Part shown: in pieces, positions 13,982 through 35,333 of the stretch | Position numbering within the stretch: position 1 is the first letter of the stretch | Layout of the letters: each line of letters starts with the position of its first letter | Source of the DNA: a virus | Taxonomy: Duplodnaviria > Caudoviricetes | IMG/VR virus record: IMGVR_UViG_2832410175_000003 | Location: 1-64,000 of that record | Length of the DNA stretch: 64,000 nucleotides | Reading direction: 5' to 3' (one strand) | Program-made: the position numbers and the translations under genes | The notes under the pieces: generated by a model | Seen by the model: the letters and a program-made list of their open reading frames with translations, nothing else | Databases searched by the model: none | What the model was told of the DNA's origin: nothing

Positions 13982-16900
13982 TTATCCGAATGTAGCCGTA
14001 TTAGCAAGTCCGGTTACGGTTGCACTGCTGAAGTCAACATCTCCATAGAACACAATCTCATTTGATGAACCTTCTTTACCAATTACGATACGAGCACCAG
14101 CCGGAGACATCAATGTCACTTCCGGATAGTCAGATGGATAGTATGAGATTTCGAACATATGGTACTGTTTGTTATTATACATTCCGTACAAACTAAAAGA
14201 TCCATTGCCGTTTGACTCACTGATGACATTAAATGTATTGCCATAAAATTCTCCGCCATAAATTTTTGGAGATTTGATACTTGTTCCATCTATAAAAGTA
14301 GCTTTCGGTGCACTATATTGTCCCTTAGCAAGAGCCAAAACATCGTCAGCCGCACCTTCTGCGGTAGACATAGCATCGTCAGCTCGGTTTTGGGCAGAAT
14401 TTGCTTTGGTTACCGCTGAATTAGCCGTGGATTGTGCGTTCTCGATTTTCTGGTCAATCTCATCGGTTCCGGTAACTGCGCCCCAGCTGATGTTGCCGCT
14501 CTTAATAGTTACGTTGCCAGAACTATCTACTTGAAACGCTCCGTTGCCGATATTCAAGCTAACGCCTTCCAATGCTCCTCCAGTCTTTTCATCAGACTTA
14601 ATCGTGCCGGAAATCATACCGCCGTCAATCCTACCAGCCTTCAGCGTACCCGAAAAAGTGCCCGAAGCACCCTTCAGCTCGCCGGAGAATTCACCGCTCG
14701 TCGCAGTAATCTTGCCGGTAAACTCGCCGTCCTTGGCATAAACGGTGCCGTTGAAAATGCCGTCCTCGGCATAGATATTGCCACGAAAATAAGCCTTGCC
14801 GTCATTGGCGTCGATGTAGAAGTTCGTACCCTTTGGAATCTTCAAGCCCTTCAGTGTGATATCATCATCGAAAACAATCTTGCCGTCCTCGTCGATAAAC
14901 GAAGGGGTGACTGTCGTGCCGTTCGTTGTATACAGGTCTCCCTTGCCGGATGCAATGCCGTAGCGTGGGTCGATTAAAATCTTACCGCCGCCGTCCTTCG
15001 CCAAAACAAAGGTAGAGTTATACAGCCAAGCGCCGGTAGCGTCAACCTTGAACTGCATCACACCGTCATCATTCGGAGCCTCGATTACCAGACCGTTACC
15101 GATAAGCAGCTTGCCGCCGATGATGTCGGCATTTACGCCCCAGTGATCGCCCAGTTCATCAGTTGCAAAGTGCCCGATGGCAACTTTTGCGCTCTGGAAA
15201 CCGTCGTCGGACATGGCAATCATGCCGTTAATAATGCGAATCTGATACGGAGAGTCGGGCTCGCCGATATGCAGACCAGCGCCGTCAATGCGGACACTCT
15301 GGTTCTTTGCGCCGATGATAGAATTGACCGCCGCGTCCAGAGAACTGTTCATGAACTCGGAAACCTTAGAAGCCTGATTCGCCGTCTGATTGTAGGTATA
15401 CTTCGCCGCGTCAAAACTGCGGCTTGAAGAATAGCTGTTCTCAATCATCTCTTTCAGGTTCGCCACGTTGTCATGACGCTTAAACCTGTTGGAGAAGGTG
15501 AGCGACAGCTTTTCCTGATCCTCAAAGTCGAGATCGAATCCAATCAGAACAGGGGTGATAACCTCATCATTGTGCAGACGCAGGTAAACGCCTTTGCCGA
15601 GTTCCAGCCCTTTTCGGAACGGCTCGAACTCCTGCGCCCAAATGAAGTTGCCGGTTTCAACGCTGAACTCATAGGTCGGCGAAGCAACGTCGGCGAGCGT
15701 CTTGACTGCATGGTCGTAAAGCTCCATCTCGACGGAATACTTCTGGTAGTCCGACACATTGGTTGTCATATAAAGGTCGGCCGCCGTGATATCAAACGAC
15801 AGAGATGTACCCTCATAGGTAATGACCTCTTTGTCGTTTACCTCGTGAATATCATTCTTAAGGTTGGACAGCGTACCGGTCAGCGTAATCAGACCGCTCG
15901 GTGCGGTTTTTTCGCCGATTTTCATTTCGCCGCAGTATAAACTGAGTACAAACTCGTCGCCGGCCTTGTGTTCCAGAGTACCACGGATAATTGAAACGGA
16001 CATTTTGTTCGCCGCTGTTACTACGGCAGTGCCACCAGCGATGGTGTACATCTTCTTCTTGATCTCGCCGAAGTCAACCTGCGCGATTGTAGAATTAGAA
16101 ATAGCAATCGCGCCGTTTGTAACCTTTGAACTCTCTCCGGTCACGGCGGTGTCAACATCGGAAGCAACAAATGTATCATCCGAAAGCGGCTGCTCGATAA
16201 AGTAGTGCCGTAACAGCGCATACTCGTCTGCGGTAAAGAAAGCCGTCAGCTTCAGCTCGTCATTCACGGCTTTGATTTGCGCCGGATAGGAGTCGGGGTT
16301 GGAAGCGTCGAGCGTGGTCTTGATATCTGCTACCACAGCTTCTTGGTCGGCGACCTCTTTCTTTTTCTTCTCCATGTTGGCGTTGATCTCGTCGAGCTTT
16401 TTCTGCTGCGAAGCCTTACCGTCCGCGGTCGTTTCCAGAGCCAGAGCCTGAATGGTTACAGACTGCTGATTCGTCAGGTCGTCCAATTCGGATTTTCGGT
16501 CAACCAGCTTAGCTTGTTCGGAGAGCAGCCGCGCTGTTGCAGAAGCTCGCAGTCCGACCAAACCCTTGTAGTATTCCTGACGGTTCAGCACGCTTTTCTG
16601 CCACTCTGTCCATTTTTCAGCCAGAGCAGAAGGAATATCGCCGTTCTCAATGAAGTACGAGATGTCGTAAATCCAGTTCGTGCCGGTCGGGTTTACTTGT
16701 CGTATGTCAAGGTCGTCCGCGCCGCTTGGGGTCATGGCAGTTACTAACTCATCAGTCAGTTCTGTGATATCAAGGTCAGTCACGAGGTTGTCGAACCCGA
16801 GGTAAATCGGCAGGGTAGACACATCATCGTCCGCATCATAAGCGTTGATCGTCTTATTATACACGTCGAATACAACCACGCAGCGAAACGTATCCATTGC

Positions 16901-17431
16901 GTCATCATACAGAAAACTCAGCGCGTAGTCGTCATACTGGTCGAACGTGCGGTAACGTCCAATTAAAGACGGCGCAACATATCCTGCCTTCCAACCCGGA
17001 GATACTTCCAGAATTCGCCCCAGAATGGTATCATCCGGCGTTGCGGGATTCCAAAAATTGAACGTGCCTTCCTCAAGGAAGAACTGCTTGTTTTCCAGTT
17101 TCTTCTCCAGAGAATATCCGGTCACCGACTTAATCTCTTCAATGCCGTCACCGGAGATTTCCGGCTTCATCAGTAAGAAGATTCCGTAATGTTCGGTGCG
17201 AATCACTTTGTAGCCAACCACTTTATCATAGAGCGGCGTCGGCACGCCGTCAGAATAGGCGGGAAGGTCAAAAGAGATTTCGCTTGTCTCGGAAAAGTTA
17301 ACTGTGATTTTCAGATTCGCCACGTTGGGAAGCGTGCCAATCGTGCGCTCGTCAGCCGTTTGGAGCAGCAGGGTAGGCGGCTCCGGCCGACCAAATTTGT
17401 CAAAGGCGATTTGCGTATAATCGAGATACAT
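13982..17431 (-). CDS. Tail-associated (Tal) / tail spike protein
   Basis: 1149 aa directly after Dit; G-x-x-x-G repeats near the C-terminus. Confidence 0.75.
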   Translation of the reverse strand: MYLDYTQIAFDKFGRPEPPTLLLQTADERTIGTLPNVANLKITVNFSETSEISFDLPAYSDGVPTPLYDKVVGYKVIRTEHYGIFLLMKPEISGDGIEEIKSVTGYSLEKKLENKQFFLEEGTFNFWNPATPDDTILGRILEVSPGWKAGYVAPSLIGRYRTFDQYDDYALSFLYDDAMDTFRCVVVFDVYNKTINAYDADDDVSTLPIYLGFDNLVTDLDITELTDELVTAMTPSGADDLDIRQVNPTGTNWIYDISYFIENGDIPSALAEKWTEWQKSVLNRQEYYKGLVGLRASATARLLSEQAKLVDRKSELDDLTNQQSVTIQALALETTADGKASQQKKLDEINANMEKKKKEVADQEAVVADIKTTLDASNPDSYPAQIKAVNDELKLTAFFTADEYALLRHYFIEQPLSDDTFVASDVDTAVTGESSKVTNGAIAISNSTIAQVDFGEIKKKMYTIAGGTAVVTAANKMSVSIIRGTLEHKAGDEFVLSLYCGEMKIGEKTAPSGLITLTGTLSNLKNDIHEVNDKEVITYEGTSLSFDITAADLYMTTNVSDYQKYSVEMELYDHAVKTLADVASPTYEFSVETGNFIWAQEFEPFRKGLELGKGVYLRLHNDEVITPVLIGFDLDFEDQEKLSLTFSNRFKRHDNVANLKEMIENSYSSSRSFDAAKYTYNQTANQASKVSEFMNSSLDAAVNSIIGAKNQSVRIDGAGLHIGEPDSPYQIRIINGMIAMSDDGFQSAKVAIGHFATDELGDHWGVNADIIGGKLLIGNGLVIEAPNDDGVMQFKVDATGAWLYNSTFVLAKDGGGKILIDPRYGIASGKGDLYTTNGTTVTPSFIDEDGKIVFDDDITLKGLKIPKGTNFYIDANDGKAYFRGNIYAEDGIFNGTVYAKDGEFTGKITATSGEFSGELKGASGTFSGTLKAGRIDGGMISGTIKSDEKTGGALEGVSLNIGNGAFQVDSSGNVTIKSGNISWGAVTGTDEIDQKIENAQSTANSAVTKANSAQNRADDAMSTAEGAADDVLALAKGQYSAPKATFIDGTSIKSPKIYGGEFYGNTFNVISESNGNGSFSLYGMYNNKQYHMFEISYYPSDYPEVTLMSPAGARIVIGKEGSSNEIVFYGDVDFSSATVTGLANTATFG

Positions 17432-17444
17432 ACACAGACCTCCT

Positions 17445-18233
17445 TTATGCGCCCACGTTGTACAGCATTCTGCCGCTGATTGTGAGCTTGCCGCTGCCAG
17501 TGATTTTCAGGTGATTATCACCGCGAACCAGCCGGAAAAAATTCATATTGAACTTGTCATACAGGTTTGTATCGTGGGATTCGGTGATGATACCAGCGTT
17601 GTTATCCACTGTAATGATAGAGTCAGCTGCGGGTACGCCCGTCAGCTTAAACTCGCGCCCATTGTCATCAGCGTTCACGATAGAGAAATCAGCCGCCGTC
17701 GGTTCAATGGTCAGCACGGGTTTGATATACTCCCGAACAGAGCTGTTGTTCCGAAAGACGATTTCAGTTTCGTCGACCACTTCGTATGTCTCTGTGAAAG
17801 GGAAGCCGTAAGCGTAAGGGCAGTCGCAGGTGACTGTAGCCTCAAATGCGAATGGCAGCCAGCCAACAGAGATTGGCTCGAGGTTTGTAATCAGGCAGCG
17901 GTACTGATAGTCTTCCATGTCGGGCTGACAAATGGAGAGCCATTGGTATTCCTGATAGCCGGTCAGCCAGAGTTGAACCTCTTGAAAATCGTAACGGTCG
18001 AGCGGCGTTTCCGAACCAAAGACAAGGTTAAACTCCAGAGGCTTCTCGTGGTAGTTTACGCCTTGATGAATTGGCTGAACGCGGCCGGTCGTTCTCGTTT
18101 CGATGATACTGGCTTCGTTACCGAACGCCGTGTCTTCGTTGCTTTTGCTGTCCAGATCACAGATAAAAAGGTTATATGCCAGAGACGACTCTCCGGCGAA
18201 CGTGAATTCGTAGGTGTTAAACAGGTTAAGCAC
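17445..18233 (-). CDS. Distal tail protein (Dit); probable start at CTG 18224
   Basis: Directly after TMP; CDCPYAY, FFRLVRGDN motifs. Confidence 0.75.
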   Translation of the reverse strand: MLNLFNTYEFTFAGESSLAYNLFICDLDSKSNEDTAFGNEASIIETRTTGRVQPIHQGVNYHEKPLEFNLVFGSETPLDRYDFQEVQLWLTGYQEYQWLSICQPDMEDYQYRCLITNLEPISVGWLPFAFEATVTCDCPYAYGFPFTETYEVVDETEIVFRNNSSVREYIKPVLTIEPTAADFSIVNADDNGREFKLTGVPAADSIITVDNNAGIITESHDTNLYDKFNMNFFRLVRGDNHLKITGSGKLTISGRMLYNVGA

Positions 18234-18276: not shown

Positions 18277-21200
18277 TTATTTTTTGATTTTGAGAACTTC
18301 GATAATGTCGTTTACCATGCGGCGGGATACAGCTTCATGCTGCTTAACCGTGTCTCCGTCCGCACCCTTGATGATTGTGTCGCCGAAGGTAACGTTCGTG
18401 ACGTTTTCACGCGGGATCGTGACAACTTCACGGTTTACGCCGGAAACAGGCATCTGAGCGGTCTTGGACAGGTCAGGCAGGGCAGAAGCGGATAAACCGC
18501 TGGTAATGGCGGACATTACCTTGAGAATGGAGTCGAGCGACTGCTGTTTAGGCTTGTCGAGCACAATTTCGCCCTTCTGCAGAATCGCCACCATCTCGTC
18601 TTGACGCAGGGTAGAGGCATCGCCGACAACGCCGCCGGTGTGGTATATACCGAGGTACTTATCATAGATGTTATTGCCATACTTGTCATACCAAACACCA
18701 GTGTGGCCATCATAGTGAACACCGAGATCGTACTGGCTGTTGAGTTGACCAGCATAGTCGGCATTCTTTTGATTGAGTGCTTTCTTCTGCTCCGCCGTCA
18801 TATTGGCAGACCAAGTATCACTGTTTTTCTTCATCTTCGCCACGATTCGAGCGATCCCGGCCACATCTGCGTCCCCAGTGCCGTATTTATTCGAATTACC
18901 GATAATGTTGGAGTTGGAACCGCTCGAGGAAGAACCAGAGCCATCTGTGCCGATTGCATCAAGCGCAGCCAAGTAGCTTCCGTAGCGTTTTGCCGCCTCA
19001 AGGGCATTGTCCCACGCCGAGCAGATCTGTTTATTGATGACGCTGCCACTCTCAGTATTCCATTCGATGAGTTCGTCGTACAATGTGCTCCAATTTTTCT
19101 CAATGTAGTCGCGTGCTTGACGATATAATTTCTCTTGGGATGAAATGGAATCTTGCAGCTTCTTAATCTCCTCGTCCTTCTGCTTTTCATAAGCCTCCTG
19201 CAACTTGTCCAAGTTTTCAGTTTGCTTATCATAGGCATAGTCCGCCTGAGAATTTTGCAATTCCTTTTGGAGATCAGCCATTTGTTCCTCGAGTTCTTTA
19301 CGCTTAGCGATGGACTCGCGGCTGTCGTCCAAAGACAGAGCATTGAGCTTTTCTTGGATTTTTGCAAGTTCCTTGACTTTGTCGGCTACATCTTCCTGAT
19401 AGTCGTTCTCGTCTTTGGTTAACTGCAGGCTTTCCTTCTTCAAATCAATAATCTCGGCGTATTTATCTTTAAGGTCTTCCAGAGCATCAACCTGCTTGTC
19501 GATTTTATCCTTAATCATGTCTTCGACATAACCAAGGAGATCATCCACACCAGATTTCATATCATCAAAGTCGACACCGGTTCCGTCTTTCACGTTGGCC
19601 AGAATGCTGCGGTACGCATCTACATTCTTAACAGCCTGCGCATAGCCTTCCTCAGTGAGGTCGAGCATAGCAAGCTGTGCATAGACGGAACCCCACTGAA
19701 CCTCGGTCAGATCGGCCGTCGCGTTCAGCAGATTATTCAGAGAAACAACGTCGTTCTCCTGCAGAGCCAGACGCAGACGTTCCACATAAGCGGAGGCACT
19801 CTCCAACGCCATCTGCTCAGTTTTAGCTTTAATAACACGGTTGATCATTTCCTCATTGATGGTCAGAAGACCATTCTCGTCTTTGAGGTATCCCATGTAT
19901 TCGACGCCAAGTTTGGAGATTTCTTGGAAGGTATCGACGGAGATAAATCCACCATTTGTCGAGTATTCCTCGGCAGCCTTCTTGAACGTGTCGAGAACGT
20001 CCTGAATCGTATCAACAGAGTCGCTTGCCGCATCAACAATATCAGAGAGATAGTCGATAACTTTCTGCTTAACATCCTTAACAGCGTCTTCGTATTCCCA
20101 CCACTGATCTGAGAGGTCGGCCACTTCGTCGCTAAGGTCGGAATATCCCATGCCACGGTAATACTGCGCTTCCTTGTGCAGGTTCTTCTGAGCTTCGCGA
20201 TAATGGTCAATGATGCCGTTGAGCGTAGACTCAATTGCGTCGCCATCGATAGACGAGAAGATAGTATCAACAGTCTTGGTTTCGAAACTGTCTGCAATGC
20301 CGCCGAAGATGCCGGCCAGAGGATTGCCCTTCTTGGCGACACCGTTCAGAATATTCTGCGACAGCTTTGCCGAATTGAAAATCTTACGCTGAGCACGAGT
20401 GAAAGAGCGTTCGAGCTTATCAGTATCGAGCAGACGGTCAAGGCTTCGCTCGGCCAGTTTAACAGCATTTTCATGTTCCGACGTGATCTTGTCGTACATG
20501 TCCTTCATCGTGTCGATGATGCTGTCATGCGCTTCCCACCATGTCTTTTGCTGTGACCTCACATACTCTGATGAATCCTTTTGGCCTTGGGCGCGAAATC
20601 TATCGGCAGCCTTCTTGGCTTCATTTTGAATCTGCTTATAATATGCAACAATCTGCATCGGGTCGCCACGCTGCTTTTCGACGAGGTAGATCTTATGCTC
20701 AATCTGGTCGATAATGTCTTCGACTTCTTCTTTAATCTTGTCGAGAGCTTCCTTTGCAGAATCTGAAAGCTGAGAGGTATCAGCAGAGACTTTGACGGTG
20801 GCATTAGATTTTTTAGAGGAACTGGAAGATGTCCAGTTTCTGAATTTACCGCCCGTACCATAGTTCAAATTACTCAAAGGGTTACTTGCGCTAACGCCGC
20901 CCCAAGTATTATATGCTTGATGGGGAATACCGCCGTGCATCAGACCAGCAGTCAGATTAGCAGGAACAATCGCGTCACCGGGTTTAGTGTTGATGACTTC
21001 CATTCCATGCAAGCCAACAAATTTACTATGCTTGCCGTCTCGAGAAATCCACTGTTCGGGTCCAAGTTCACCGACAAGTGTCTTGCCTCCAATCGCATTG
21101 CCACCAGAAGCGTATTGAGCCATTTTGCCAACGTGCCCTGTATAGAACTGTTTTGGATTTCGACGTGGAGAACCAGTAGCGCTTGGATAGCTATTTGATC

Positions 21201-24200
21201 CACTGTAAACTGGAGCTTTTGGGACGCTACCAGTAGTAAAATTGATAGCATAACTCAGATGGCCTAGTGTACTATCTAACGTTACTTTCAGTGAGTTTAT
21301 CGCTCGATTAGCGTTTGCCGTCTCAATTTTTATTCCGCGCTCGCGTTCGATAGGAGCGAGCGCTTCATCGATAGCGTTGCCCTTTTGTTCAGCTTCAACG
21401 GTGTTTCCCTCAATGGTGAGCTGAACGGGGTTACCAGACTCATCTTGGATTTTAGCCAATGTGTTCAGCACTATCTGCGCTTGCTCGTTCGTAACACCAA
21501 GACTACCCGCGAACGCATCCAAGTTGGTTACGTTAATCGACCAGCCGCCGTCGCTAAGACGTTCAACACTTGCCGCAGCTTCACCTGACGCTGTCTTAAC
21601 ACTTTCAAGTGAGGCTTTCAACCCATCGAACGTAGGTGTGTCTCCACCTATACTTGCTTTGAACCGATTCATAGCAGCCACGAGAGAATCAAGTTCGGTT
21701 ACAGACATATTCTTAACGTCAATGTCCATACCTTCAGTCAACGACTCGAGTGCGACCTTGGCACTACTACTCATGTGCTCCCAAGCCTTAGTGGTTGATT
21801 GGTCTGCTTCATTCACAGATTGTTTGATACGATAAGTCTCATTATTCAATGTCTGAATACTTGACACAACAGAACCAACCGTTTTGGGAACATAGTCCGA
21901 ATAAGTAGAAATTAAGTCGAGAGACTGTTGCAAAGAAGCCGCCGAAATGCCAAAAGCATCGGCTAGGGCGACAACATCATGTTGCGCAACTTGCATGGAA
22001 CCGGTGTTCCAATCTACGTCCATTAGTCCATCGACGGCTTTTTTCTTGTCAGCACTCAGTTCGTTGTACTTCTTATGAAGGGTATTAAGCGTCCCGGTCA
22101 GGTCTTGACCGACATTATCCTCGTCTGTACCTGTCAAGAAGAGACCCTCATTGTCCTTAACCCACTGTTTCGCTTCTTTCAGGCTAACAACCTTGCCGAT
22201 GAGAAGCTCCATTTGGTTGCGAGCTTCCTCTGTGTTGATTTGTCCTTTATTTACTGATTCTGCGAAATCATCATAAATTGAAACCATGCTCTCGTGGTCT
22301 TGAACGTGGTCGGTCACACCTTCCATCGATGTCTCGTATTCTGTAAGAGCGCCGGAAACTGTATTCAATGATTCCGCCTGAGTATCCAACGATTTAGAGA
22401 TTGCATCCAGAGCTTCAGGAAGAGCTCCTGCTTGAGCGAGGGTCGCGAGACGGACAGCAAATTCTGAAGCCCGTTCACCGGTGTCAATCAGGGCTGAGTT
22501 TAGAGCAGAAAGCTGATTCTTAGATAACTTTTCAAGGTCTAACCCATTGAGCAAAGCCTCAAGCGAAGTTCCATCAAATTCTGCACCACTGAGAGCTTCG
22601 GTAAAATTACTGCGGATGGCCTCTCGCATTTGCTTCATATCTTCCTCAAATTGAGTAAGCCCGAAAATTTTCGAGAGGTCAACACTTGCCATCTCATTAT
22701 CTGTCAAATAGTTAGAAAGCTGGGCGCGGATAATATCAAAAAGTTGAGTCGCTTGTCCTTCGAATTGGTCGAACGGCATACTGTCACGTTTATCAAGCAA
22801 TTTGTAATAAGAATCGATAGCGTTCTTGCCAGCATCAGTTTCGGTTACGACCTTCATCATCGCATTTGCATAATTCAGCGCGGCTTTTTCGCCTTTGCCT
22901 TTTAACATAGAAGTGTCAATGCCGGAGACGTAATCAGAAAGAAATGCCTGTTGTGACTGTGAAAGGTCGTAGTATTGAGCGTTTGCCTCAAGAGCTGCTT
23001 GCATAACTTGCTTCAGAGAACCGCTCGCGTTATCATAAGTATCCATTGCAGCAGACCAAGTCCGTTCGACATTAACTCCTTCCGAGGCGAGATCTTTAGA
23101 AAGCAAGTTGGCATCATTTAATTGATTGATGATGTCTTGAATATTATCTCCAAATTTGTCGCTGTTTCCGAGAATAAAGCCATCCATTCCAACTTTTTTC
23201 GAGCCTTTAGCTTTCCAGTAATCGGCATATTCGTTGAACGTCTGACCGGCTGCAGATTCTAATATTTTTTGAAATTTTGATGCTTCACCTGTTCCAGCTT
23301 CAGCAGCTTCTTTGTATGCTTTTTTGAGGAAAGAAGCTATGCCACCCTTAGCATTGTCCAGTTCTTGATTTGCCTGATCAATCTGGCCTTCCATGTCGAT
23401 ATAAGCGGCTTCGTAATTTTGTTTGTGGCCATCGTTTGTCGAAGAACCGCCATAAACCGTTTCGTTTGCTTCCTGAATACGCTGTTGCTTGAGTAGATCA
23501 ATTGTCTGCTGAATAGCTTCGTTCTTATTGATGATAGCTTGCTGTTCATCGTTGTATCCTTGAATAAGAGCTGGGTTGATGGACACAAGCTGGGATACCA
23601 TATCCTGATATTCCTGATATTGCTCAGCGGAAAGAGAAACGTTTTTGCCGCTTTCGGTTACACCTTTAGACAATTCTTCAAACCGCTCGCGCATATTGTC
23701 CACAGACGAAAGATTATTATCAATTTCGGACGTAGCTTTGGAATAGTTACTCAGCACAGTTCCGGTTACTTCCGAGGCTTCTTTTGCGGACATAATCGCT
23801 TTATCAATAACAGTTGCAATTCCGGTTATTGCAATTTGAATAGCCATAACTGCTGCCATCGAAACGGCCATACTTGCAATAGCAGACCCAATCCCCTTAA
23901 AAGTCGATGTAATCTTAGCTCCGAGGGTTCCTATTTTTTCTTGCTTTGCAGTGAAGTTATCGATTTGTCCGGTAACAACATCATACTCATTCCCAACGGT
24001 GTCAAGGGATTTAGCGAACTCACGGCTTTGAATAGTTGCACCAGAAAGAGCTTTTTCAAAATCAGCACCGCGGAGTTTTTGCTTCATCTGAGCGTAGCTT
24101 TTCAGAATATCATTTTGTTCCTTCCAGTAGTCGTGATTTTTGGTGTTATAATTTTTAAGCCAACTGAACAAACCACTTCCGTCCAAAGTGTTTTCTCCAG

Positions 24201-27200
24201 ATTCTCCTTTCCCTCCGATAATGCTTTTCCCGTTCATTGACAGAAGCAGGGAAGCTACAGGGGTGATAAGTCCCGGAAGGACGCCAAGTTTATCAATCAG
24301 AGTGTTGAAGAACCCGAGAATGCCAGAGCCGGCGTCGATTGTGCCTTTCACAAAGCCTGAGTCAAGAACACTCGTGCTTGCGGACTGGAATTGCGCTTGG
24401 AACTGTGCAAGTTTACCTTGAATAGAATCAAGATATTTTGCGTTCTCGGCATCAGCTGAGCCAGTTGCGTTTTTAGTTGACTCGATGACGTCCTCAACGG
24501 TCGACCAGTTCTGGATGAGCGCTGAAGTTGTATTCGCCATTCTCTTCGTTTGTGTTTACAAGGTTTGCAAAGCCTTATGTTGTATCTACAACCTCATGTT
24601 TTCACATGAGACCCGACTATTTCTTCACCCTTGCAACCAAGGGGCATACCTTTTCCATTTAAGGGATTTTCACCCACGCCTTTGCTTGCGCCGTACTCCT
24701 GTTGCTCATAAAGAGCCGAGGGATAGTCTGTGAACCTTCTCCGTGTCATGAGACCGATAGGAGCTTGGCTGCATGATCACCCATTGTTACTGCACTTAGG
24801 CTTTTGACCGTATGCAATCCGCACGTTGTTTCTGCTTTCGCACCGTCATAAACTGCTTTCGCGCTTATTGTGGTGTGCGGCTTTAGGGGGTACCTGCAAT
24901 TAAATATGTTGTTATTGCACATTACTGTACAACCGGGCAAGGTTGATCTACCCGAAATGGTTTTGAGCAAAGCGGCCTGATCCACGTCGCTGAGGCTGTC
25001 ATAAACTTCTGCAATTTCACGCATAATTTGCGTAGTGCTCTTAAATTGCGTTCCAGCCTCATCAGACATAATGTCCACTTTGTCGTGAGTTAAAGTTTCG
25101 ATGGTTTCGCGAAGCTCACTTACAGAGTTTGCCATACCATCCGTTTCGATTCCGGCCTCTTCAGCATCGGCTTTAGCGGCACGGAGGTACATACTAAGGG
25201 TTTTAGCCCATGTCAATCTGTTACTTTCGGCGGGTCGCCTACTGACCACTTTTGTGGCGGCAAGGCCGTTAAACCTTGCTCTCGCGTTTCGTTGTTAGAT
25301 TATAGCGCGAGTTCGGACTGTATCTTCACCCCAGAGCGGGGGAATGGCGAAGCCCCGCTTGTTACCAAGCGGGGCTTTACAGTCTCTACGGATTTTGAAT
25401 TAGCTTAAAGGAATATAGATAGGTTCATTAAGCTCACAAGATTCATGGTTATCATCAAAATATTTTGTTATGGCAAACGCCACAATTTTGTCTCGTTTGT
25501 TCCACATATCAAAAGTATCGTCTATATAAACAGCTGTACTAAACTTACGACTTGGCTCAACTGTAGAACCACACGGAGCACCTAATGTAGTCAATGTGCG
25601 TCCTTTTTTATCAAGTAAATCAACTAAAAACCCAGCATTCTCTAAGGTATCCTGAGAAATATTTTCTCCGGTAAACCAATATTCAATAGAACCATCGTAT
25701 GGAGATTTCTGCGAATCAAATTCTATTTTTAGGGGAAAATAACAGTCAGCATTAGCGTCGCCGCTGCCACTTCCGGGTTTAACTCTACTGGAACAACCAC
25801 ATAACACTCCCAACAACATAACGATGAGAGCAATAATACTAATATTCCTTTTCATTTTCATCCACTCCTTTACCTCAATTATACATTAAGATAGAAGAGA
25901 ATGGAAGCTAAAATTCAATCTTTCCTCGGTCTGAACCGTCTCCGGCCTTTAACCGATATAGCCATTTGCTTGCTCGCATATTACTATGCGGCTGGGCGCA
26001 TGGATTCACCCACTGTATCAGGATCTTGTCGTTTCTGTTACTTGTTAGCGCTGATATACCACTAATCTGACCGCAAAGCGGCGGCAAGGTCTTTCGGCCT
26101 TACTCTCACGTTTCCTTTCATTATTGCGTGAGTCCGGACTGTATATTACACCCTTCCCAGAGGAGTGGGGTGGATTGGTTCAGCTCTGGTGTTACCATCA
26201 GAACCCCGCAGTCTCTACGGATATTGCTACCCACGGTCTCTGCTGTCGCCAGCCTTTGACCGTTTTACCAATCTGCTTGCGAACGTATTACTACGCCGCG
26301 TGGCAAAGATCTACCACTTCGTTTGCTGCTGTTACGAGGCCCAAACTCTCATCGAGAGAGTTGCCGCCTGCGTACAGAGCTGCTGCTGATCTTTTGAGGG
26401 CTTCGCCAAGCCCTTCTGCGTACCTTTAGCGCGGGTCGTTACTCCGCACCGACATAAAGTCCTCCGTCTTTCAACGGAGCCGAGATCATATCTTCACCCC
26501 ATAGGGTGCCTACCACTTTCAGAGCACTTGCTCCTACTTTGATCGTTGAACCTTCCTCTATTCGAGGCTTGGCTGCTGATTATCCATTGTCACGGCGTTT
26601 AGGATTTAACCTTGCGCCATCTCTCATTTTTTTCTGCTTTCGCCGCATTCACGTCTGCGCCTGTTCGGCACTGCGTTGTAGCATGAGAGCTTTAGGACGT
26701 CCCAGCAATTCAATAGGTGATTTTACGAACACATTTCTGTGAACGAAGTCCAATGATTAAACTTATCGCGTAGTTGTTTCCGCTGTTTGTTACTTTTTCG
26801 CCTTAAAAACGAAAAGAACAGGTCATTTCTGCCTGTTTCTGCAATTTTATTATTCGATTATATTTGCAGACCCGACTATATCTTCACCTCCAGAAAAGGA
26901 GGGGATGGCATGACCTCACACGTTACCGTATGAAATCGGTTAGTCTGTACGGATTCTTGTGGTCAAGCACAAGTCTTTCCTCGGTATTGCCCATCTCTGG
27001 GTGTTCACCGATATAGCCATCTTTTACGCTGCACATCGCTGTGCAGGGAGGCCGGTCAAAACCTCATTGAAACGGTCTACAACACTTCCAACATCATCAG
27101 CAGCAAGATGGAAGCCCTGCAGAGTAGAAACAAGCGACTGTGCCGCGTCCTCAATATTCGTGTACTCCGACACGTTCATATATTTGGTTGCCCAGTCGCC

Positions 27201-28736
27201 AAGATTGGAGGCATCCTCCAAATTAAATCCGAGTCGGCTAAACTCAGATGTTGCTCCAATTACATCCGTAATCGAAGCGCCGAGGCTCTTCGCGCGTTCA
27301 CCAGCACTATCAAGATAATTAGCGTAATCCTGACTTGAGCCTTCCGAAACCTTTTTCAGGTCGGTCATCGCCGTGTCAACGTCGATAACATTCTGGAGCG
27401 TCTGCTGTAAGCCATTCTGCAATAAGTGCAGTCCTGCCATTGCAATAGCCGTGTTAAAGTGATCTTTGAACAGACGAGTCAGCTTCTGCCCGACAGTTTC
27501 AGACGTAAACCCGAGTTCTTCCATACTGGAGCGAACTGCCGCGAGGTCTCTTTGAAGTCCCTCAACGCTATCACCTTCGCCTGGGTTTCTCGCACGGCTC
27601 ATAATGTTCCGCAGTTCACCTTGAAAATAAGAGCCCGCCGCTTTGGGGTTATTTTTAAGCGTTTCGCTGGCCTGCCGATAAATGTTCGCCAAATGTTCCT
27701 GCGATCTCTGAGAACGAACGGTCGCAGTTTGCTTAGCATTAAACAAATCCGCCTGTGCGCTCGCATCAGCCCACGCGGAACGGAGTCCATTCAGGCCCTG
27801 CGCCAGCTCATAAGTACCGGCCGCCGCATTCTGGAAAACAGATTTTGCATTCTTGAATGCCGTCCAGTCATAATTCTGCAGCGTCCCTTTATCTTTTAGA
27901 GCCTGAAGCTGCGTTATATATTTCTGGCCGGATGCCAAAACATTATCAGTAACCGACTGAGAGTTCTGTCTGGACACTGTAGTCCACATCTTCTTGATGC
28001 TTTTCTCAAGCGCATACTTCTCTGGCGTAAAATCCGCCATGCTCTTGTACTGTTTGAGCATCTTATCAAGGCTGGCTACATTCTCCTCACCAAAAAGGTT
28101 GCCCTGCTTGAGCTTTCCAAACTTAGAGCGAATCTGCTGAACATCCAACATAGATCGCTCGGCCTTTTCCGCAGCCTTCAAATTGTTGCGAGAGAACGCA
28201 ATATTGGTCGCCTGCTGTGCCTCTTTCAGCGCGTTAACGCTTTCTACAGTTCCCTTGGTCGTTGACTCAAACTTCTTCATCGCGGTTTCAGCCGCCGAGA
28301 TAGCCTTTGAATCGATAGGACTCGGCATGTTCTTCAGATACGACATCGTCTGTCTCAAGCCGGTTGCCTGACGCTCCATTGTGCGCAGCTGCCGTTCCGC
28401 AGCTTTTTCTGCGTCTGTTTTGCCCGATGTGGAGCTTTTAGACGAGATTCTCTTCGTGGTAGAAGAGCGAGTTGAAGCCGCAGAAGACTTAGCTTTGCCG
28501 GAGCTGTTTGTTCCAGTTCCGGCCGCCGAGATAGCCTTTTTAATCTGAGCAGTGATATTGGCAGTATCAACGTTTACTTTCAGCTTGGTTGAGGAAGCGT
28601 TTTTGATTGCTGAACTGATACTTTTCTGCAGAGCTGCAGCATCAACTTGAATTGGAAAATCCTTGTAGTTACTGAGGGCGCTTTCGAGTTTGTCAAAATT
28701 AGGGATAAGTTCGACAGTAACGCCTAAATCAGCCAT
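18277..28736 (-). CDS. Tape measure protein, spliced: join(28736-27061, 26782-26760, 26418-26313, 26029-26008, 25213-24950, 24546-18277), 2786 aa
   Basis: Exon sum 8361 nt in one frame; junction peptide FNEV-GNNYAIS-SEGLGEALKRSAAAL...AANEV-VQDPDTVG-TWAKTLSM...TISG-KRMANTT matches the TP901-type TMP core. Confidence 0.9.
24547..24949 (-). ncRNA. Group I intron 5 of TMP gene (403 nt, no ORF)
   Basis: P1 CGGGU/GCCCG with U.G at the splice site; P7 strands CACAGACUA / GAAGAAAUAGUCG; terminal G. Confidence 0.85.
25400..25861 (-). CDS. Intron-encoded lipoprotein (FxLYD-like Ig fold), candidate superinfection exclusion
   Basis: Signal peptide with lipobox LCG/C; FLVDLLDKKG motif; SD AAGGAG; AT-rich. 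Confidence 0.75.
   Translation of the reverse strand: MKMKRNISIIALIVMLLGVLCGCSSRVKPGSGSGDANADCYFPLKIEFDSQKSPYDGSIEYWFTGENISQDTLENAGFLVDLLDKKGRTLTTLGAPCGSTVEPSRKFSTAVYIDDTFDMWNKRDKIVAFAITKYFDDNHESCELNEPIYIPLS
25878..25906 (-). promoter_or_regulatory. sigma-A promoter inside intron 4
   Basis: TTCCAT-17 bp-TATAAT just upstream of the lipoprotein SD. Confidence 0.6.
26030..26312 (-). ncRNA. Group I intron 3 of TMP gene (283 nt)
   Basis: P1 GUGGU/GCCAC; P7 strands GUAGAGACUG / UAAUAUACAGUCC; terminal G. Confidence 0.85.
26419..26759 (-). ncRNA. Group I intron 2 of TMP gene (341 nt)
   Basis: P1 AAGUU/GACUU; covaried P7 CAACGAUCA / GAAGAUAUGAUCU; terminal G. Confidence 0.82.
26783..27060 (-). ncRNA. 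Group I intron 1 of TMP gene (278 nt)
   Basis: P1 GAGGU/GCCUC; P7 strands GUACAGACUA / GAAGAUAUAGUCG; terminal G. Confidence 0.85.
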
Positions 28737-29690: not shown

Positions 29691-30881
29691 TTATTTGAAC
29701 AGCTTAGCGAACAGTTTACTTGCGCTGCTTCTTACATCCTCATCAAGGTAAATGCACCCGAAGGACTTCTCGCCGCGCAGTTCATTACACATCTTTACCA
29801 GTGGATTGTTCGCAGTTCTGTCCACCAGTGACTGACCATAATCGCCGCTCAAGAAAATACGGCTGTTCTGGCCGAGACGGGTTCCTACAAGTCGAATCTG
29901 TGCTTCAGACAAGTCTTCCGCCTCGTCCACAAGCATAATCGTGTCGTTGTAGGTCGTGCCCTTCATATAATATGGGATGTTCGTATCAAGCTGGCCGCGC
30001 TGACGAAGAGCTTCAAGCTCAAACTCGCCGCCCTTCAGCTGCTGCTCAATCGGCAGGAAGAAGTTGCGCGTCTTGTCTTCGAGCGTTCCTTTCAAATAGC
30101 CGACCGGAGCGCCTTCCCCGGCAGGCTCGCGGATTCCCAACAGCTTGCTCTGGTTTCCCTTTTCGAGCACATGGTACAACCCCATCTGTGTGGTCAGAAA
30201 AGACTTGCCGCTGCCGTAAGTGCCGAGAATTGCCACAATGTCAATGTCTCGGTTCATCAGCAGGTCAAGCGCACAACGCTGAAGCGAGTTCTTCCCCTTT
30301 AGATAGCCGGAATGCGGCAAGCGCAGTTCAACAAACTTCTCGCCGTCGAATCGCATTTCGCTCGTCTTGCCGGTCTCCGTGTCTGTCAGCAGAAGATACT
30401 GATTCGGGAACATAGTAGCAGTGTCGAGCCGCTCCATGTACTGGTTGATTTCATCAGAAGTACCAGCGAACTGAACATATCCGGTATAGACATCATCCTC
30501 TACGTCAGAAGATGCTACTTCCATGTGATACAGCCCCCGCGCAATACAGCGACAGGAGAGGTCATCCGTCACGAATACAATCGGCTCTGCCGCGCGGGTT
30601 TGTGCCGCATCATAACAAATAAGGTAATCCGGGGAACCGTCATGCAGAGCGATAGATGTGCTCGGGATCACGGTAGCGTGGTTTGCCACCGTGTACATCT
30701 CTGGGTGACTATCCAGCAGTCGGGTCACCTTACGAGCCTTATGCTTGACCTCGGCATCCTTGCTGCGGCTGGTCTTGATATTCTCCAGTTCGCGTAGCGT
30801 CACCATAGAGATGTAAAAAGGCTCCGCGAACGCACGTTCACCGGCGTTCAGCAGAGCACAAGTGTCATAGAATTTCTTCAT
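29691..30881 (-). CDS. phoH: PIN-PhoH family ATPase
   Basis: N-terminal PIN (FYDTCALL...FVTDD); Walker A GTYGSGKS; DEAED; TRLGQNSRI.LSGD. Confidence 0.9.
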   Translation of the reverse strand: MKKFYDTCALLNAGERAFAEPFYISMVTLRELENIKTSRSKDAEVKHKARKVTRLLDSHPEMYTVANHATVIPSTSIALHDGSPDYLICYDAAQTRAAEPIVFVTDDLSCRCIARGLYHMEVASSDVEDDVYTGYVQFAGTSDEINQYMERLDTATMFPNQYLLLTDTETGKTSEMRFDGEKFVELRLPHSGYLKGKNSLQRCALDLLMNRDIDIVAILGTYGSGKSFLTTQMGLYHVLEKGNQSKLLGIREPAGEGAPVGYLKGTLEDKTRNFFLPIEQQLKGGEFELEALRQRGQLDTNIPYYMKGTTYNDTIMLVDEAEDLSEAQIRLVGTRLGQNSRIFLSGDYGQSLVDRTANNPLVKMCNELRGEKSFGCIYLDEDVRSSASKLFAKLFK

Positions 30882-31462
30882 GCGCCAATTACCTCATCCA
30901 CAAGACCATACTTGAGCATATCATCCGAGTCCATGTACCATTCGTAGCGTTCCATGCGCTCGTATTCATCCTCCGTGATTTTGGAATGAGAGAGTGTGTA
31001 GTCGCGAAGACGCTGTTCAAAGCGTTCCGTAAACTTAAACGTATCCTTCACCGATGAGCTCGTGCCTTCCATATAACTGGAGCCACCGTGCAGCAGGGCA
31101 GTAGAGTGCTTGAAGCACTTCTTGGTTACGTTTGGGTTGCTGTATCCGGCCATCAGAAAATAGCCGCCCATCGAATAGGCGTGGCCGGTCACCAAAATGG
31201 TTGTCGGAGTCTTGAGATTGTCAATAATATCACAAAGAGGCATGCCGTCAAACAGAGAGCCACCGCAGGTATTCAGTACAATCGTGATTGGCTTGCCGCT
31301 GCCGTCGTTGTCCATCTCCAGCAAGGGAAGCATGACGCTCTCGACAATACGGTCGTCAACCTCATCATTGAATACGATGCGGCGATCCTGCAAACCCTTA
31401 AAATACTGATAGATGGTCGGGTCCATTGCGTCTTTTGCAATATTCTCCAGAAAAAGTTCCAT
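30878..31462 (-). CDS. clpP: ClpP-like protease
   Basis: LNTCGGS, AYSMG (catalytic Ser), LLHGG, YGLVDEVI. Confidence 0.85.
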   Translation of the reverse strand: MELFLENIAKDAMDPTIYQYFKGLQDRRIVFNDEVDDRIVESVMLPLLEMDNDGSGKPITIVLNTCGGSLFDGMPLCDIIDNLKTPTTILVTGHAYSMGGYFLMAGYSNPNVTKKCFKHSTALLHGGSSYMEGTSSSVKDTFKFTERFEQRLRDYTLSHSKITEDEYERMERYEWYMDSDDMLKYGLVDEVIGA

Positions 31463-31522
31463 TTGGTTTCTCCTTAAATTTTAGAAAATTTGAGCGAATG
31501 CTCATTGGTGTGAGGGAACCCC

Positions 31523-31960
31523 TCAAATGTTGGCTAAAAAGCCGGCGCGAACCACAGAAATAAGCTCGCTGGAACCGTCAAGAGCCTTGACAGTTTCATC
31601 ATAAAAGCGGCGCGGATGCATCCACGGATAGTCGGCATTATTGAATACGTTCGGCGCACCAGTATCGTTAATCATCTGGGCGAAATATCCTGGGCCCGGA
31701 GGATTGCCGCTTCTTTGCGGCGTGTTTGCGGAGTTAATATCAAAGATACGGAGTGTGTAAGTTCCGGGAATTTCCGCAAATACTGTACCCAAACCACCTC
31801 GGCGAACATACTGAGTAGGAGAGTAGCTATCATAAACTACTTCCTGTGCCTTTTCTCGTATTTTCTTCTCCACAAGGTCTTTCACTTGATAGTTCAGTGT
31901 TTTTCTTGCCGAAGCCTTGGCGGCAGCTTCCAGAGCTGCAATACTCTTAAAAGTCTTCAT
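31523..31960 (-). CDS. Putative tail-completion protein
   Basis: VYDSYSPTQYVRRGGL and PRRFY motifs; position in the tail module. Confidence 0.55.
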   Translation of the reverse strand: MKTFKSIAALEAAAKASARKTLNYQVKDLVEKKIREKAQEVVYDSYSPTQYVRRGGLGTVFAEIPGTYTLRIFDINSANTPQRSGNPPGPGYFAQMINDTGAPNVFNNADYPWMHPRRFYDETVKALDGSSELISVVRAGFLANI

Positions 31961-31973
31961 AGGTCGCCTCCAA

Positions 31974-32981
31974 TCACTTTTCGGCTTTTTCTGCCTCCGC
32001 AGCGCGTTTGTTCTCAAAGAACTTGCTCAGTCGCTCGCTAGCTGGCACATCGTTATAAACCTGTACCATCGCGCTATTCGCCCAGCCGACTACATCGGTA
32101 ATATCACTCTCAGACATACCGTCACGTACCAGATTGGACACGAAAAGATGCCGCATAGAGTGCCAGTAGAACGGCTTAACCGTGAATCGGTCAATCGTCT
32201 GTGCCCAGCTGTTCAAAGTCTCGGCCGAAGCTTGCTCGTAACCCTTATCGGTTTTTGTCACGAACAGCCACTCGCTGTTAATGCTGAGGTCTTTACGCTG
32301 CTGTAACCAGCGTTTCAGGTACGGGTCAAATCCTGATTTTATAACGTAGCAGTCGATCATCTTAGCACCCTTGGTCAAAACCTTCTCAGGAGTGCAGTAA
32401 AAATAGTCAAAAACCACGTTTTCAGGCTTAAACCAGTCCACTTTGAATCGAGTCAGTTCCGCCTTTCGGCGACCGCTGTAGACCGCCAGAGCGAGAGCAC
32501 AGGCAATCTGAAACTTGCCCGCCTCGGTCAGCTTCTGCAGAATTACCTCCATCTCCTCGGTGGAGAAGACGCTCTTCTCACGGACGGGCGTATTCTGCGG
32601 GTTCTCAATCTTGCGGATAATCGGACGGAAGTCCTCGTATTCATCGTCAAGAATGTTCTCGATGTAGTTTGAGAGAGAAGAAAGCGCCGCCTTTACACGG
32701 CGCACACGGGCAGGGGAGTTGCCGTTCTCGTTGATAAGCCAGTTCTGGAGAGAAACAATTTCTCGCTTTTTCAAATCAATAAACGACTTATTCCCGCAGT
32801 TCTGGAGCACATAAGTGAATACGATAAGCAAGTCGCTCTTGTATCCTTTAATCGTGCCTTCACTGCGTTTCAGAGAACGAAGATACTCCAGAAAATCATT
32901 CATCAACTGAATGTTCTCCGGATTTATCTGCTTCGTCAGCTCCGGAGAGGTCAGCTTGTTCATCTGTGTCTGGCGTCCCAT
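31974..32981 (-). CDS. Tyrosine recombinase / integrase family
   Basis: SAM-like N domain; SGRRKAEL (R), TKG (K), HSMRH, VGW, VY catalytic set. Confidence 0.88.
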   Translation of the reverse strand: MGRQTQMNKLTSPELTKQINPENIQLMNDFLEYLRSLKRSEGTIKGYKSDLLIVFTYVLQNCGNKSFIDLKKREIVSLQNWLINENGNSPARVRRVKAALSSLSNYIENILDDEYEDFRPIIRKIENPQNTPVREKSVFSTEEMEVILQKLTEAGKFQIACALALAVYSGRRKAELTRFKVDWFKPENVVFDYFYCTPEKVLTKGAKMIDCYVIKSGFDPYLKRWLQQRKDLSINSEWLFVTKTDKGYEQASAETLNSWAQTIDRFTVKPFYWHSMRHLFVSNLVRDGMSESDITDVVGWANSAMVQVYNDVPASERLSKFFENKRAAEAEKAEK

Positions 32982-33561
32982 CTTCACCCTCCTTTCCGAA
33001 AAGGCCGTAGACGAGGTTGTCCGCTGCGGAATCATCCAGTGTGCCGGACAGCAGTGCCTTCGCAGTATCAACATCAATGCCGGTAATCACATTCTTCAGA
33101 CCACTCATCAGGTCAGTCGCCGCGTCTGCGATGCGGTCAAACGGGTTGGACTGGGTCATTGCCTGCATCAGTACCAATTCGGTATCAATCGCGGCGTTAA
33201 TCTGCTTGTAACAAGCCTCTTCCAGCTCAGCCAGCTTATCCTCGCCGATAACCTCTGCAATCAGAGCATAGATATCGGTCTTATACAGCAGAGCAGCTTC
33301 AAAGCCGCCATCCAGTGAGATATGCAGGTCAGTGCAAACCTTCACGACAGCGGAGCGGAAAGCCCAGTCAACCAGGCCAAAATTGCGGCCGTCACCGTCA
33401 TCAATATGCTGGCCGACCTCGTTTACAATAGTCGCACGCATCTTCGGGGTAATCAGCGGCTTAATCTTGATTGGAATAATAGTCTCGCCGATAGTGAGAT
33501 CCTTGGTTACAGACTCTACATACGGAGTCAGAGCCGCCATAATATCAGTCTTCTTGGACAT
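32896..33561 (-). CDS. Hypothetical protein (possible tail assembly chaperone)
   Basis: 221 aa acidic; overlaps both neighbours. Confidence 0.6.
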   Translation of the reverse strand: MSKKTDIMAALTPYVESVTKDLTIGETIIPIKIKPLITPKMRATIVNEVGQHIDDGDGRNFGLVDWAFRSAVVKVCTDLHISLDGGFEAALLYKTDIYALIAEVIGEDKLAELEEACYKQINAAIDTELVLMQAMTQSNPFDRIADAATDLMSGLKNVITGIDVDTAKALLSGTLDDSAADNLVYGLFGKEGEDGTPDTDEQADLSGADEADKSGEHSVDE

Positions 33562-35252: not shown

Positions 35253-35328
35253 TGGCACGAGTGCTTCGAGTCGAACGAAGATCATACGGTTTTGGAGACC
35301 GATAGCGTACCAATTAGCCCACACTCGC
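35253..35328 (-). tRNA. tRNA-Trp(CCA)
   Basis: 76 nt cloverleaf; anticodon loop CTCCAAA; T arm CTTCG-TTCGACT-CGAAG; encoded CCA end. Confidence 0.85.
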
Positions 35329-35333
35329 ATGTA

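What the first reader, a model, noticed from the sequence alone, without database searches (positions are those of the whole stretch)
24547..27060. Five consecutive group I introns with 22-23 nt micro-exons in the tape measure gene
Seen: introns of 278, 341, 283, 794 and 403 nt separated by exons of 23, 106, 22 and 264 nt. Each has an exon-terminal U paired to G in a 5-bp P1, recognisable P7 strands and a terminal G. Removing all five joins three apparent ORFs into one 2786-aa TMP with an uninterrupted conserved core. All insertions fall within 415 coding nt. Inference: tail assembly needs five successful splicing events, which could act as a timer or checkpoint. Skipping single exons 2, 3 or 4 frameshifts, whereas skipping exon 5 (264 nt) or exons 2+3 (129 nt) stays in frame and could give shorter tails.
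Basis: partly seen in the sequence, partly recalled or inferred. Interest (0 to 1): 0.88.

Follow-up and report, generated by a model that had tools for sequence, protein, structure and literature searches.

The report
Five self-splicing introns in tape-measure gene
The tail-length (tape measure) gene of this uncultured 175-kb phage is cut by five real group I self-splicing introns packed into 415 coding bases, a very dense example of a known phenomenon and probably a pile-up of selfish elements, not a timer.

Summary
On the minus strand, five introns of 278, 341, 283, 794 and 403 nt lie between exons of 23, 106, 22 and 264 nt. Removing them gives one open 8361-nt frame, a 2786-aa tape measure protein (TMP).

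- **Junctions:** near-identical relatives lack introns 1 and 2, or intron 5, exactly at the predicted junctions. More distant intron-less TMPs align without gaps across all five junctions.
- **Ribozyme identity:** Rfam finds introns 2 and 5 above threshold and intron 1 below it. A model built from intron 1 plus the RT-PCR-validated mycobacteriophage BAKA intron finds introns 3 and 4. All five have a 5-bp P1 ending in U·G, P7 strands and a terminal G.
- **Variation:** relatives at 97-99% identity in exon 1 carry four, five or six introns, and a more distant one carries two. This argues against an obligatory timer and for a hot spot of selfish elements in the conserved TMP core.
- **Precedents:** TMP introns in Bacillus cereus prophages, and Twort orf142 with three introns, a 23-nt exon and exon skipping.

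This scan has noted similar or denser TMP intron stacks in other genomes. Splicing itself is not shown, because no RNA data could be reached.

The parts
27061..28736 (-). TMP exon 1 (1676 nt). Unspliced, the frame runs 12 codons into intron 1 and stops at 27024.
   Evidence: ORF list. phrog_4211 tape measure, E 5e-24, and PF10145 profile positions 3-83 at its C-terminal end. Stop distance.
26783..27060 (-). Intron 1, group I, lineage A, 278 nt, no ORF
   Evidence: RF00028 31.4 bits, E 1.8e-5, below the gathering score. P1-P9 verified by coordinates. Its core aligns with the RT-PCR-validated BAKA intron. Absent exactly at this site in L012, L014, L015 and L004.
26760..26782 (-). Micro-exon 2 (23 nt, about 7 codons of the conserved TMP core)
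   Evidence: 100% identical in L007-L011 and L013. Contiguous with exons 1 and 3 in L012 DNA. Aligns ungapped to the Sundance TMP.
26419..26759 (-). Intron 2, group I, lineage B, 341 nt, no ORF
   Evidence: RF00028 70.3 bits, above the gathering score of 50. P1 and P7 verified. Absent in L012, L014, L015 and L004.
26313..26418 (-). Exon 3 (106 nt)
26030..26312 (-). Intron 3, group I, lineage A, 283 nt, no ORF
   Evidence: No Rfam hit. Model R1, built from intron 1 plus BAKA only, finds it full length at 31.6 bits, E 2.7e-8. P1, P3-P9 verified. The MFE/centroid fold recovers P1, P2, P3, P4/P5, P8 and P9. Absent in L004 and Sundance. The L014 version carries endonuclease-like ORFs.
26008..26029 (-). 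Micro-exon 4 (22 nt, about 7 codons of the conserved core)
   Evidence: 100% identical in L007-L013 and L015, and 95% in L014. Aligns ungapped to intron-less L004 and Sundance.
25214..26007 (-). Intron 4, group I, lineage A, 794 nt, with an ORF in the P6 loop
   Evidence: R1 hits the 5' half (25847-26013, E 1e-5) and the 3' half (25246-25389, E 9e-8). P1, P3, P4, P6, P7, P7.1, P8 and P9 verified. Absent in L004 and Sundance.
25400..25861 (-). Intron-4 cargo ORF of 153 aa, with a lipoprotein-type signal peptide and no endonuclease domains
   Evidence: No Pfam or PHROG family. The nearest Atlas cluster is 'Lipoprotein family protein'. Only 26% identical to the ORF at the same place in L008.
24950..25213 (-). 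Exon 5 (264 nt)
   Evidence: PF10145 profile positions 124-201. Contiguous with exon 6 in L015.
24547..24949 (-). Intron 5, group I, lineage B, 403 nt, no ORF
   Evidence: RF00028 60.4 bits. P1 and P7 verified. Absent in L015.
18277..24546 (-). TMP exon 6 (6270 nt including the stop)
   Evidence: phrog_4211, E 2.5e-60, profile positions 847-2620. Followed by Dit (17445-18233) and a Tal-like minor tail protein (13982-17431).

Best explanation
The tape measure gene of this roughly 175-kb SPbeta-like temperate phage is interrupted, inside its conserved PF10145 core, by five independent group I ribozyme introns.

- **Lineages:** the introns belong to two paralogous lineages, in the order A-B-A-A-B.
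- **How the protein is made:** the gene is transcribed as one precursor. Each intron folds, pairs its internal guide with the last five bases of the exon upstream (U.G at the cleavage site), and removes itself by the usual two guanosine-initiated transesterifications. Only an RNA that has lost all five encodes the 2786-aa TMP.
- **Why they are there:** the introns are selfish elements that piled up here because the DNA of the TMP core is conserved among phages and offers homing sites. In this genome all five have lost their homing endonuclease. Intron 4 carries a lipoprotein gene instead.
- **Linked pairs:** introns only 22-23 nt apart (1+2, 3+4) are gained or lost together.
- **Why it is tolerated:** the burden is probably acceptable because few TMP copies are needed per virion.

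Shown: the anatomy, the exact junctions, ribozyme family membership and the presence/absence polymorphism. Inferred: that splicing happens, the selfish origin, and tolerance through low demand.
For: 1. Joining the exons gives one open 8361-nt frame.
2. The joined product aligns at 39% identity, with no gap across any junction, to the intron-less Brevibacillus phage Sundance TMP. It also aligns to SPbeta YomI.
3. L012 is 98% identical over the aligned stretch and is contiguous across junctions 1 and 2. L015 is contiguous across junction 5. L004 is contiguous at protein level across junctions 1-4.
4. RF00028 hits introns 2, 5 and 1. Model R1, built from intron 1 plus the validated BAKA intron, hits introns 3 and 4 and nothing else.
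5. The helices are verified by coordinates, and paralogues differ by compensatory changes in P3, P7, P8 and P9.
6. The two lineages show 61-78% identity within each.
7. Relatives carry endonuclease-like ORFs in the same introns.
8. The same five-intron layout occurs on three other contigs and a six-intron layout on three more, so this is not an assembly artefact.
9. The gene order TMP-Dit-Tal supports the gene's identity.
Against: There are no RNA data, so splicing, its efficiency and its order are not shown.

- Introns 3 and 4 have no Rfam hit, and intron 1 is below the gathering score.
- The E-values of R1 are rough, because the model was built from two sequences with a shortened calibration.
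- No endonuclease that could have moved these introns was found in this genome. How the endonuclease-less copies spread is therefore open.
- Neutrality of the introns is inferred from polymorphism, not measured.
Confidence: 0.85

Rival explanations
1. Regulatory device. The need for five splicing events delays or gates TMP synthesis, or in-frame exon skipping (exon 5, or exons 2+3) makes shorter TMP isoforms and shorter tails.
For: - Only those two skips keep the frame.
- The guide of intron 5 can pair with the end of exon 4 at all five positions, and the guide of intron 3 with the end of exon 1 at four of five.
- Exon skipping across a 23-nt exon is documented for Twort orf142 and was reproduced with engineered tandem introns (PMC10136302).
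Against: - Intron number varies from four to six among relatives whose exon 1 is 97-99% identical. A more distant relative has two, and other TMP homologues have none in this stretch. No particular set of introns is conserved as a device.
- The skippable exons encode the conserved PF10145 core. The isoforms would probably be defective, not merely shorter.
- Skipping either micro-exon alone shifts the frame.
Confidence: 0.07
2. Decayed or inactive elements. One or more introns no longer splice, so the TMP is a pseudogene in a defective provirus, or the ORFs are translated as separate proteins.
For: - All five introns lack endonucleases, which is a late stage of the intron life cycle.
- Introns 3 and 4 are not recognised by Rfam.
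- IMG/VR classes the record as a provirus.
Against: - All core helices, the U.G pairs and the terminal G are intact.
- The 8.3-kb exon frame has no stop.
- The micro-exons are 100% conserved on seven or eight other contigs, while flanking exons differ by up to 10%.
- About 40 PF10145 profile positions are encoded only by exons 2-4.
Confidence: 0.05
3. Assembly artefact. A metagenome assembler stacked intron copies from different strains into one chimeric contig.
For: The region contains paralogous repeats, and the source is a metagenome.
Against: - The identical exon-intron order recurs on L007, L010 and L011.
- A six-intron version recurs on L008, L009 and L013 with consistent boundaries.
- The paralogues are only 61-78% identical, too divergent to mis-join.
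Confidence: 0.01

Closest known systems
Staphylococcus phage Twort orf142: three group I introns, a 23-nt exon between introns 2 and 3, and exon skipping (Landthaler & Shub 1999, as described in PMC10136302 and cited in PMC11878797)
   Same: Several group I introns in one phage gene. There is a micro-exon of about 23 nt between two back-to-back introns, and the flanking introns are similar to each other, as introns 3 and 4 are here.
   Different: Here there are five introns (six in relatives) and two micro-exons, all within 415 coding nt. The introns come from two lineages, and one carries a non-endonuclease gene. Splicing and skipping are not shown here.
Group I introns TMP-IVS1, IVS2 and IVS3a/b in tape measure genes of Bacillus cereus-group prophages (Tourasse & Kolsto 2008, PMC2504315)
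   Same: The host gene family is the same. There are several insertion sites, similar introns sit at different sites of one gene, and many copies lack an endonuclease.
   Different: That study reports three sites in all. In the passages I read, no strain is described with more than two TMP introns, and I did not see the figure. Here five sites are occupied at once, and at least seven sites are used among relatives within about 140 codons.
Cluster J mycobacteriophage introns (BAKA minor tail gene, LittleE capsid gene), spliced in vivo by RT-PCR (PMC3706429)
   Same: Intron 1 shares its catalytic core with the BAKA intron: 78% identity over 68 nt, and the two align along their whole length. Both are short, lack an endonuclease and sit in structural genes.
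   Different: Those are single introns in a different gene and host phylum.
Bastillevirinae DNA polymerase and terminase genes with up to three introns (PMC11878797)
   Same: Several self-splicing introns per phage gene, with variable occupancy among relatives.
   Different: The reported maximum is three per gene, mostly with endonuclease genes. I searched that paper for 'short exon' and found no such description.
Micro-exons between group I introns in mitochondrial cox1 of fungi and placozoans (PMC12308204, PMC5436844)
   Same: Very short coding exons lie between group I introns in a conserved gene that serves as an intron hot spot.
   Different: Those are organellar genomes, where splicing is often protein-assisted. 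They are not bacterial viruses with coupled transcription and translation.

Membership tests
Group I catalytic intron (Rfam RF00028) | Covariance-model score at or above the gathering score (50 bits) | tested here: inconclusive
   Met for intron 2 (70.3 bits) and intron 5 (60.4 bits). Intron 1 scores 31.4 bits (E 1.8e-5), below threshold. Introns 3 and 4 give no hit, even when intron 3 is searched alone. Model R1, built from intron 1 and the validated BAKA intron, finds introns 3 and 4 at E 3e-8 to 1e-5.
Group I catalytic intron (Rfam RF00028) | P1 helix formed by the 5' exon end and an internal guide sequence, with U.G at the cleavage site | tested here: met
   All five have four Watson-Crick pairs plus a terminal U.G. 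Each guide pairs best with its own exon.
Group I catalytic intron (Rfam RF00028) | [quoted passage not shown] | tested here: met
   All five introns end in G.
Group I catalytic intron (Rfam RF00028) | Conserved core: P3-P8 with the P3/P7 pseudoknot and J8/7 | tested here: met
   Shown for introns 1, 2 and 5 by the CM alignment and for introns 1, 3 and 4 by coordinate-checked helices. Compensatory differences between paralogues occur in P3, P7, P8 and P9. The J8/7-P7' motif occurs without mismatch in the 175-kb genome only at introns 1, 2, 4 and 5.
Group I catalytic intron (Rfam RF00028) | Precise removal restores the host gene | tested here: met
   The joined frame is open. Alignments to intron-less TMPs are ungapped. 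DNA of L012 and L015 is contiguous across junctions 1, 2 and 5.
Group I catalytic intron (Rfam RF00028) | Guanosine-dependent self-splicing of the RNA | not testable with these tools
This needs in vitro splicing or RT-PCR.
Phage tail tape measure protein (PF10145 core, phrog_4211) | Profile match to the TMP core and to a full-length TMP family | tested here: met
   phrog_4211 scores E 5e-24 (exon 1), 2e-5 (exon 5) and 2.5e-60 (exon 6), collinear along the profile. PF10145 is split between exon 1 and exon 5, and each piece is below the gathering score on its own. The joined product against the Sundance TMP gives E 1e-73. The joined protein could not be passed to the Pfam tool.
Phage tail tape measure protein (PF10145 core, phrog_4211) | Position in the tail module, upstream of Dit and Tal | tested here: met
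   Dit (phrog_33) lies at 17445-18233, and a minor tail protein (phrog_6211) at 13982-17431, directly downstream.

The most novel reading that the evidence does not exclude
The tandem introns are used by the phage. Controlled exon skipping would join exon 4 to exon 6, or exon 1 to exon 4 (the only two in-frame options), or the compound delay of five splicing steps would act as a gate. Either way the phage would tune how much TMP is made, or which isoform, and so tail assembly or tail length. The guide sequences allow both in-frame skips.
Probability: 0.06. Interest if true: 0.85.

Novelty: new member of a known kind. Interest (0 to 1): 0.52.

Why it matters
- **Annotation:** gene finders split this 2786-aa protein into three ORFs and cannot see the two 22-23-nt exons. 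TMP length, and tail length inferred from it, would be badly wrong.
- **Intron density:** in the literature I could search, the highest number of group I introns reported for one phage gene is three. Five, and six in sister contigs, within 415 coding bases is among the densest packings known.
- **A natural allelic series:** close relatives carry four, five or six introns and a more distant one two. This is a ready-made system to test how neighbouring ribozymes fold without interfering, and how often they skip a micro-exon.
- **Spread without an endonuclease:** the same series can show how endonuclease-less introns spread and are lost.
- **The TMP core as a hot spot:** the data show that the conserved TMP core is a preferred landing site for group I introns.

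Tried and rejected
- **Rfam on intron 3 alone:** it gave only noise hits.
- **blastn of intron 3 against phage records:** no match.
- **Genome-contig scan with exon 1:** no relative was found, so the host stays unknown.
- **Homologues of the L004 intron endonucleases in this genome:** none found, which is only a weak negative.
- **cmsearch with filters off:** it failed internally, so I used the default filters instead.
- **Landthaler & Shub 1999:** the paper is not held. Its content is cited second-hand from PMC10136302 and PMC11878797.
- **Promoter for the intron-4 ORF:** the consensus scan did not report one. By eye there is only an extended -10-like element, which I do not claim.
- **Twintron reading of the back-to-back introns:** rejected, because the 22-23-nt pieces encode conserved residues present in intron-less homologues.
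- **Intein or frameshift explanations:** rejected, because the intervening segments are full of stops and match ribozyme models.

Full report
**1. Observation**

The gene lies on the minus strand. The ORF list shows three large pieces: 27024-28736, 24746-25249 and 18277-24540.

- Exons: 28736-27061, 26782-26760, 26418-26313, 26029-26008, 25213-24950 and 24546-18277.
- Introns: 278, 341, 283, 794 and 403 nt.
- Internal exons: 23, 106, 22 and 264 nt, which sum to 415 nt.
- Every upstream exon ends in U and every intron ends in G.

**2. Are the junctions right?**

Pfam PF10145, the TMP core, is split. Profile positions 3-83 end exon 1 and positions 124-201 lie in exon 5, so about 40 positions must come from exons 2-4. 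PHROG 4211 (tape measure) matches exons 1, 5 and 6 collinearly.

The joined protein aligns to the intron-less TMP of Brevibacillus phage Sundance at 39% identity (E 1e-73), and to SPbeta YomI. There is no gap in the stretch holding all five junctions. Both micro-exons match seven-residue segments of Sundance almost letter for letter.

Nine related IMG/VR contigs and GenBank MT835469 give direct allelic evidence.

- L012 matches the joined exon sequence at 98% identity and is contiguous, without any indel, across junctions 1 and 2.
- L014 and L015 also lack introns 1 and 2.
- L015 is contiguous across junction 5.
- L004 (MT835469) is contiguous at protein level across junctions 1-4.

Every one of the five junctions is therefore seen in joined form in some natural relative. 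L007, L010 and L011 repeat the five-intron layout, so it is not an assembly artefact.

**3. Are they group I introns?**

Rfam RF00028 hits intron 2 (70.3 bits) and intron 5 (60.4 bits), both above the gathering score. It hits intron 1 at 31.4 bits (E 1.8e-5). Introns 3 and 4 are not found.

Intron 1 shares its core with Cluster J mycobacteriophage introns. One of these, the BAKA minor-tail intron, was shown to splice by RT-PCR (PMC3706429), and the two align along their whole length.

A covariance model built only from intron 1 and the BAKA intron was searched over the 64-kb window on both strands. Besides intron 1 itself it finds only three things:

- intron 3, full length (E 2.7e-8);
- the 3' half of intron 4 (E 8.5e-8);
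- the 5' half of intron 4 (E 1e-5).

In the whole 175-kb genome this model and RF00028 hit nothing outside this gene.

Helices checked by coordinates show the following:

- a five-pair P1 ending in U.G in all five introns;
- P3, P4, P5 or P6, P7, P8 and P9 in introns 1, 3 and 4;
- five-pair P7/P7' in all five introns;
- compensatory differences between paralogues in P3, P7, P8 and P9.

The thermodynamic fold of intron 3 recovers P1, P2, P3, P4/P5, P8 and P9. In intron 4 the ORF lies in the loop of P6.

**4. Relationships and dynamics**

The introns fall into two lineages.

- **Lineage A** is introns 1, 3 and 4, at 66-72% identity.
- **Lineage B** is introns 2 and 5, an extra intron in L008, and both introns of L004, at 61-78% identity.

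Occupancy varies among relatives.

| Contigs | Number of introns | Which introns |
|---|---|---|
| Window, L007, L010, L011 | 5 | 1-5 |
| L008, L009, L013 | 6 | 1-5 plus an extra intron about 24 nt upstream of intron 5, which creates a third micro-exon |
| L012 | 4 | 3, 4, the extra intron, and 5 |
| L015 | 2 | 3 and 4 |
| L004 | 2 | one at a site not used in the window, one at the site of the extra intron |

At least seven insertion sites are therefore used within about 140 codons.

Introns separated by only 22-23 nt (1+2, 3+4) are always present or absent together. This is expected if gene conversion moves them as one unit.

L004's introns carry ORFs of 379 and 476 aa with CapR, DUF4379, DUF723 and DUF2726 matches. 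These resemble the CapR-like/EDxHD-Vsr-like homing endonucleases described in PMC12350094. L014's version of intron 3 carries pieces of a similar gene.

None of the window's five introns has such a gene, and no homologue was found elsewhere in the genome. This pattern fits the usual cycle of invasion, endonuclease decay and loss.

**5.

The most likely account is ordinary self-splicing of five independent ribozymes from one precursor. The TMP is made only from fully spliced RNA. This step is inferred, because no RNA data could be reached.

A ribosome on unspliced RNA stops 12 codons into intron 1. Each guide sequence pairs best with its own exon. That fits the finding that differentiated splice-site recognition favours exon inclusion in tandem introns (PMC10136302).

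Micro-exon 4 is flanked by two similar lineage-A introns. This is the arrangement that gives exon skipping in Twort orf142. Here, skipping it would shift the frame, which is a cost and not a feature.

They would, however, delete part of the conserved core.

Because relatives differ in intron number, I rate a dedicated timer or checkpoint as unlikely, at about 0.07.

Tolerance of five introns may reflect the low copy number of TMP per virion. This rests on my own general knowledge of tail structure and was not tested.

**6. Context**

The TMP is followed by Dit and a Tal-like protein. The genome is an IMG/VR record of 175,415 bp classed as a provirus. Its TMP resembles those of SPbeta and Sundance, and the nearest GenBank record comes from human faeces. 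The host is unknown.

**7. Comparison and novelty**

- Group I introns in TMP genes are known. Three sites occur in B. cereus-group prophages, including similar introns at different sites and copies without an endonuclease (PMC2504315).
- Three introns in one phage gene, a 23-nt exon and exon skipping are known from Twort orf142 (PMC10136302). Up to three per gene occur in Bastillevirinae (PMC11878797).
- I found no report of more than three group I introns in a phage gene.
- This scan has, however, already noted comparable or denser TMP stacks in other genomes.

I therefore file this as a new, unusually dense member of a known kind.

**8. Verdict**

The structural interpretation is supported. 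The regulatory interpretation is unsupported and is mildly contradicted by the polymorphism among relatives.

Noticed in passing
L008:9828-10257 (also L009, L012, L013): Sister contigs carry an extra lineage-B intron of about 405 nt, roughly 24 nt upstream of intron 5. This gives six introns and a third micro-exon in L008, L009 and L013.
   Followed up: partly
L008:9823-9843; L004:5490-5516; L004:7347-7372: I placed the boundaries so that the protein alignment has no indel and the intron ends in G. On that basis three lineage-B introns in relatives appear to have C, not U, as the last exon base. It would pair C-G in P1, an unusual 5' splice site for group I introns. The window's own five introns all have U.G.
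   Followed up: partly
window 25400-25861 (-) and L008:8873-9400: The ORF in the P6 loop of intron 4 encodes a lipoprotein-like protein, not an endonuclease. Its counterpart in L008's version of the intron (859 nt against 794 nt) is only 26% identical. The cargo therefore looks fast-evolving, or has been replaced. Its function is unknown. A superinfection-exclusion role is only a guess.
   Followed up: partly
L004:5970-7109 and L004:7969-9399; L014:7950-8909: Intron ORFs in relatives have zinc-finger (CapR, DUF4379, DUF723) and DUF2726 or EDxHD-like matches. These resemble the homing-endonuclease group described in PMC12350094. The L014 copy is split into two ORFs and may be decaying.
   Followed up: partly
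L008 and L012, exon 5 and the start of exon 6: In contigs that carry the extra intron, exon 5 and the start of exon 6 drop to about 90-92% identity with the window. Exons 1-4 stay at 98-100%. This is consistent with co-conversion of flanking exon sequence from a divergent donor.
   Followed up: no
window 35256-35426 (-): Two adjacent tRNA genes (Rfam RF00005, 53 and 50 bits) lie upstream of the structural module. They are conserved in the related contigs.
   Followed up: no
window 29691-33077 (-): A PhoH-like gene, a head maturation protease and a tyrosine integrase lie just upstream of the TMP region. This is an unusual place for an integrase.
   Followed up: no
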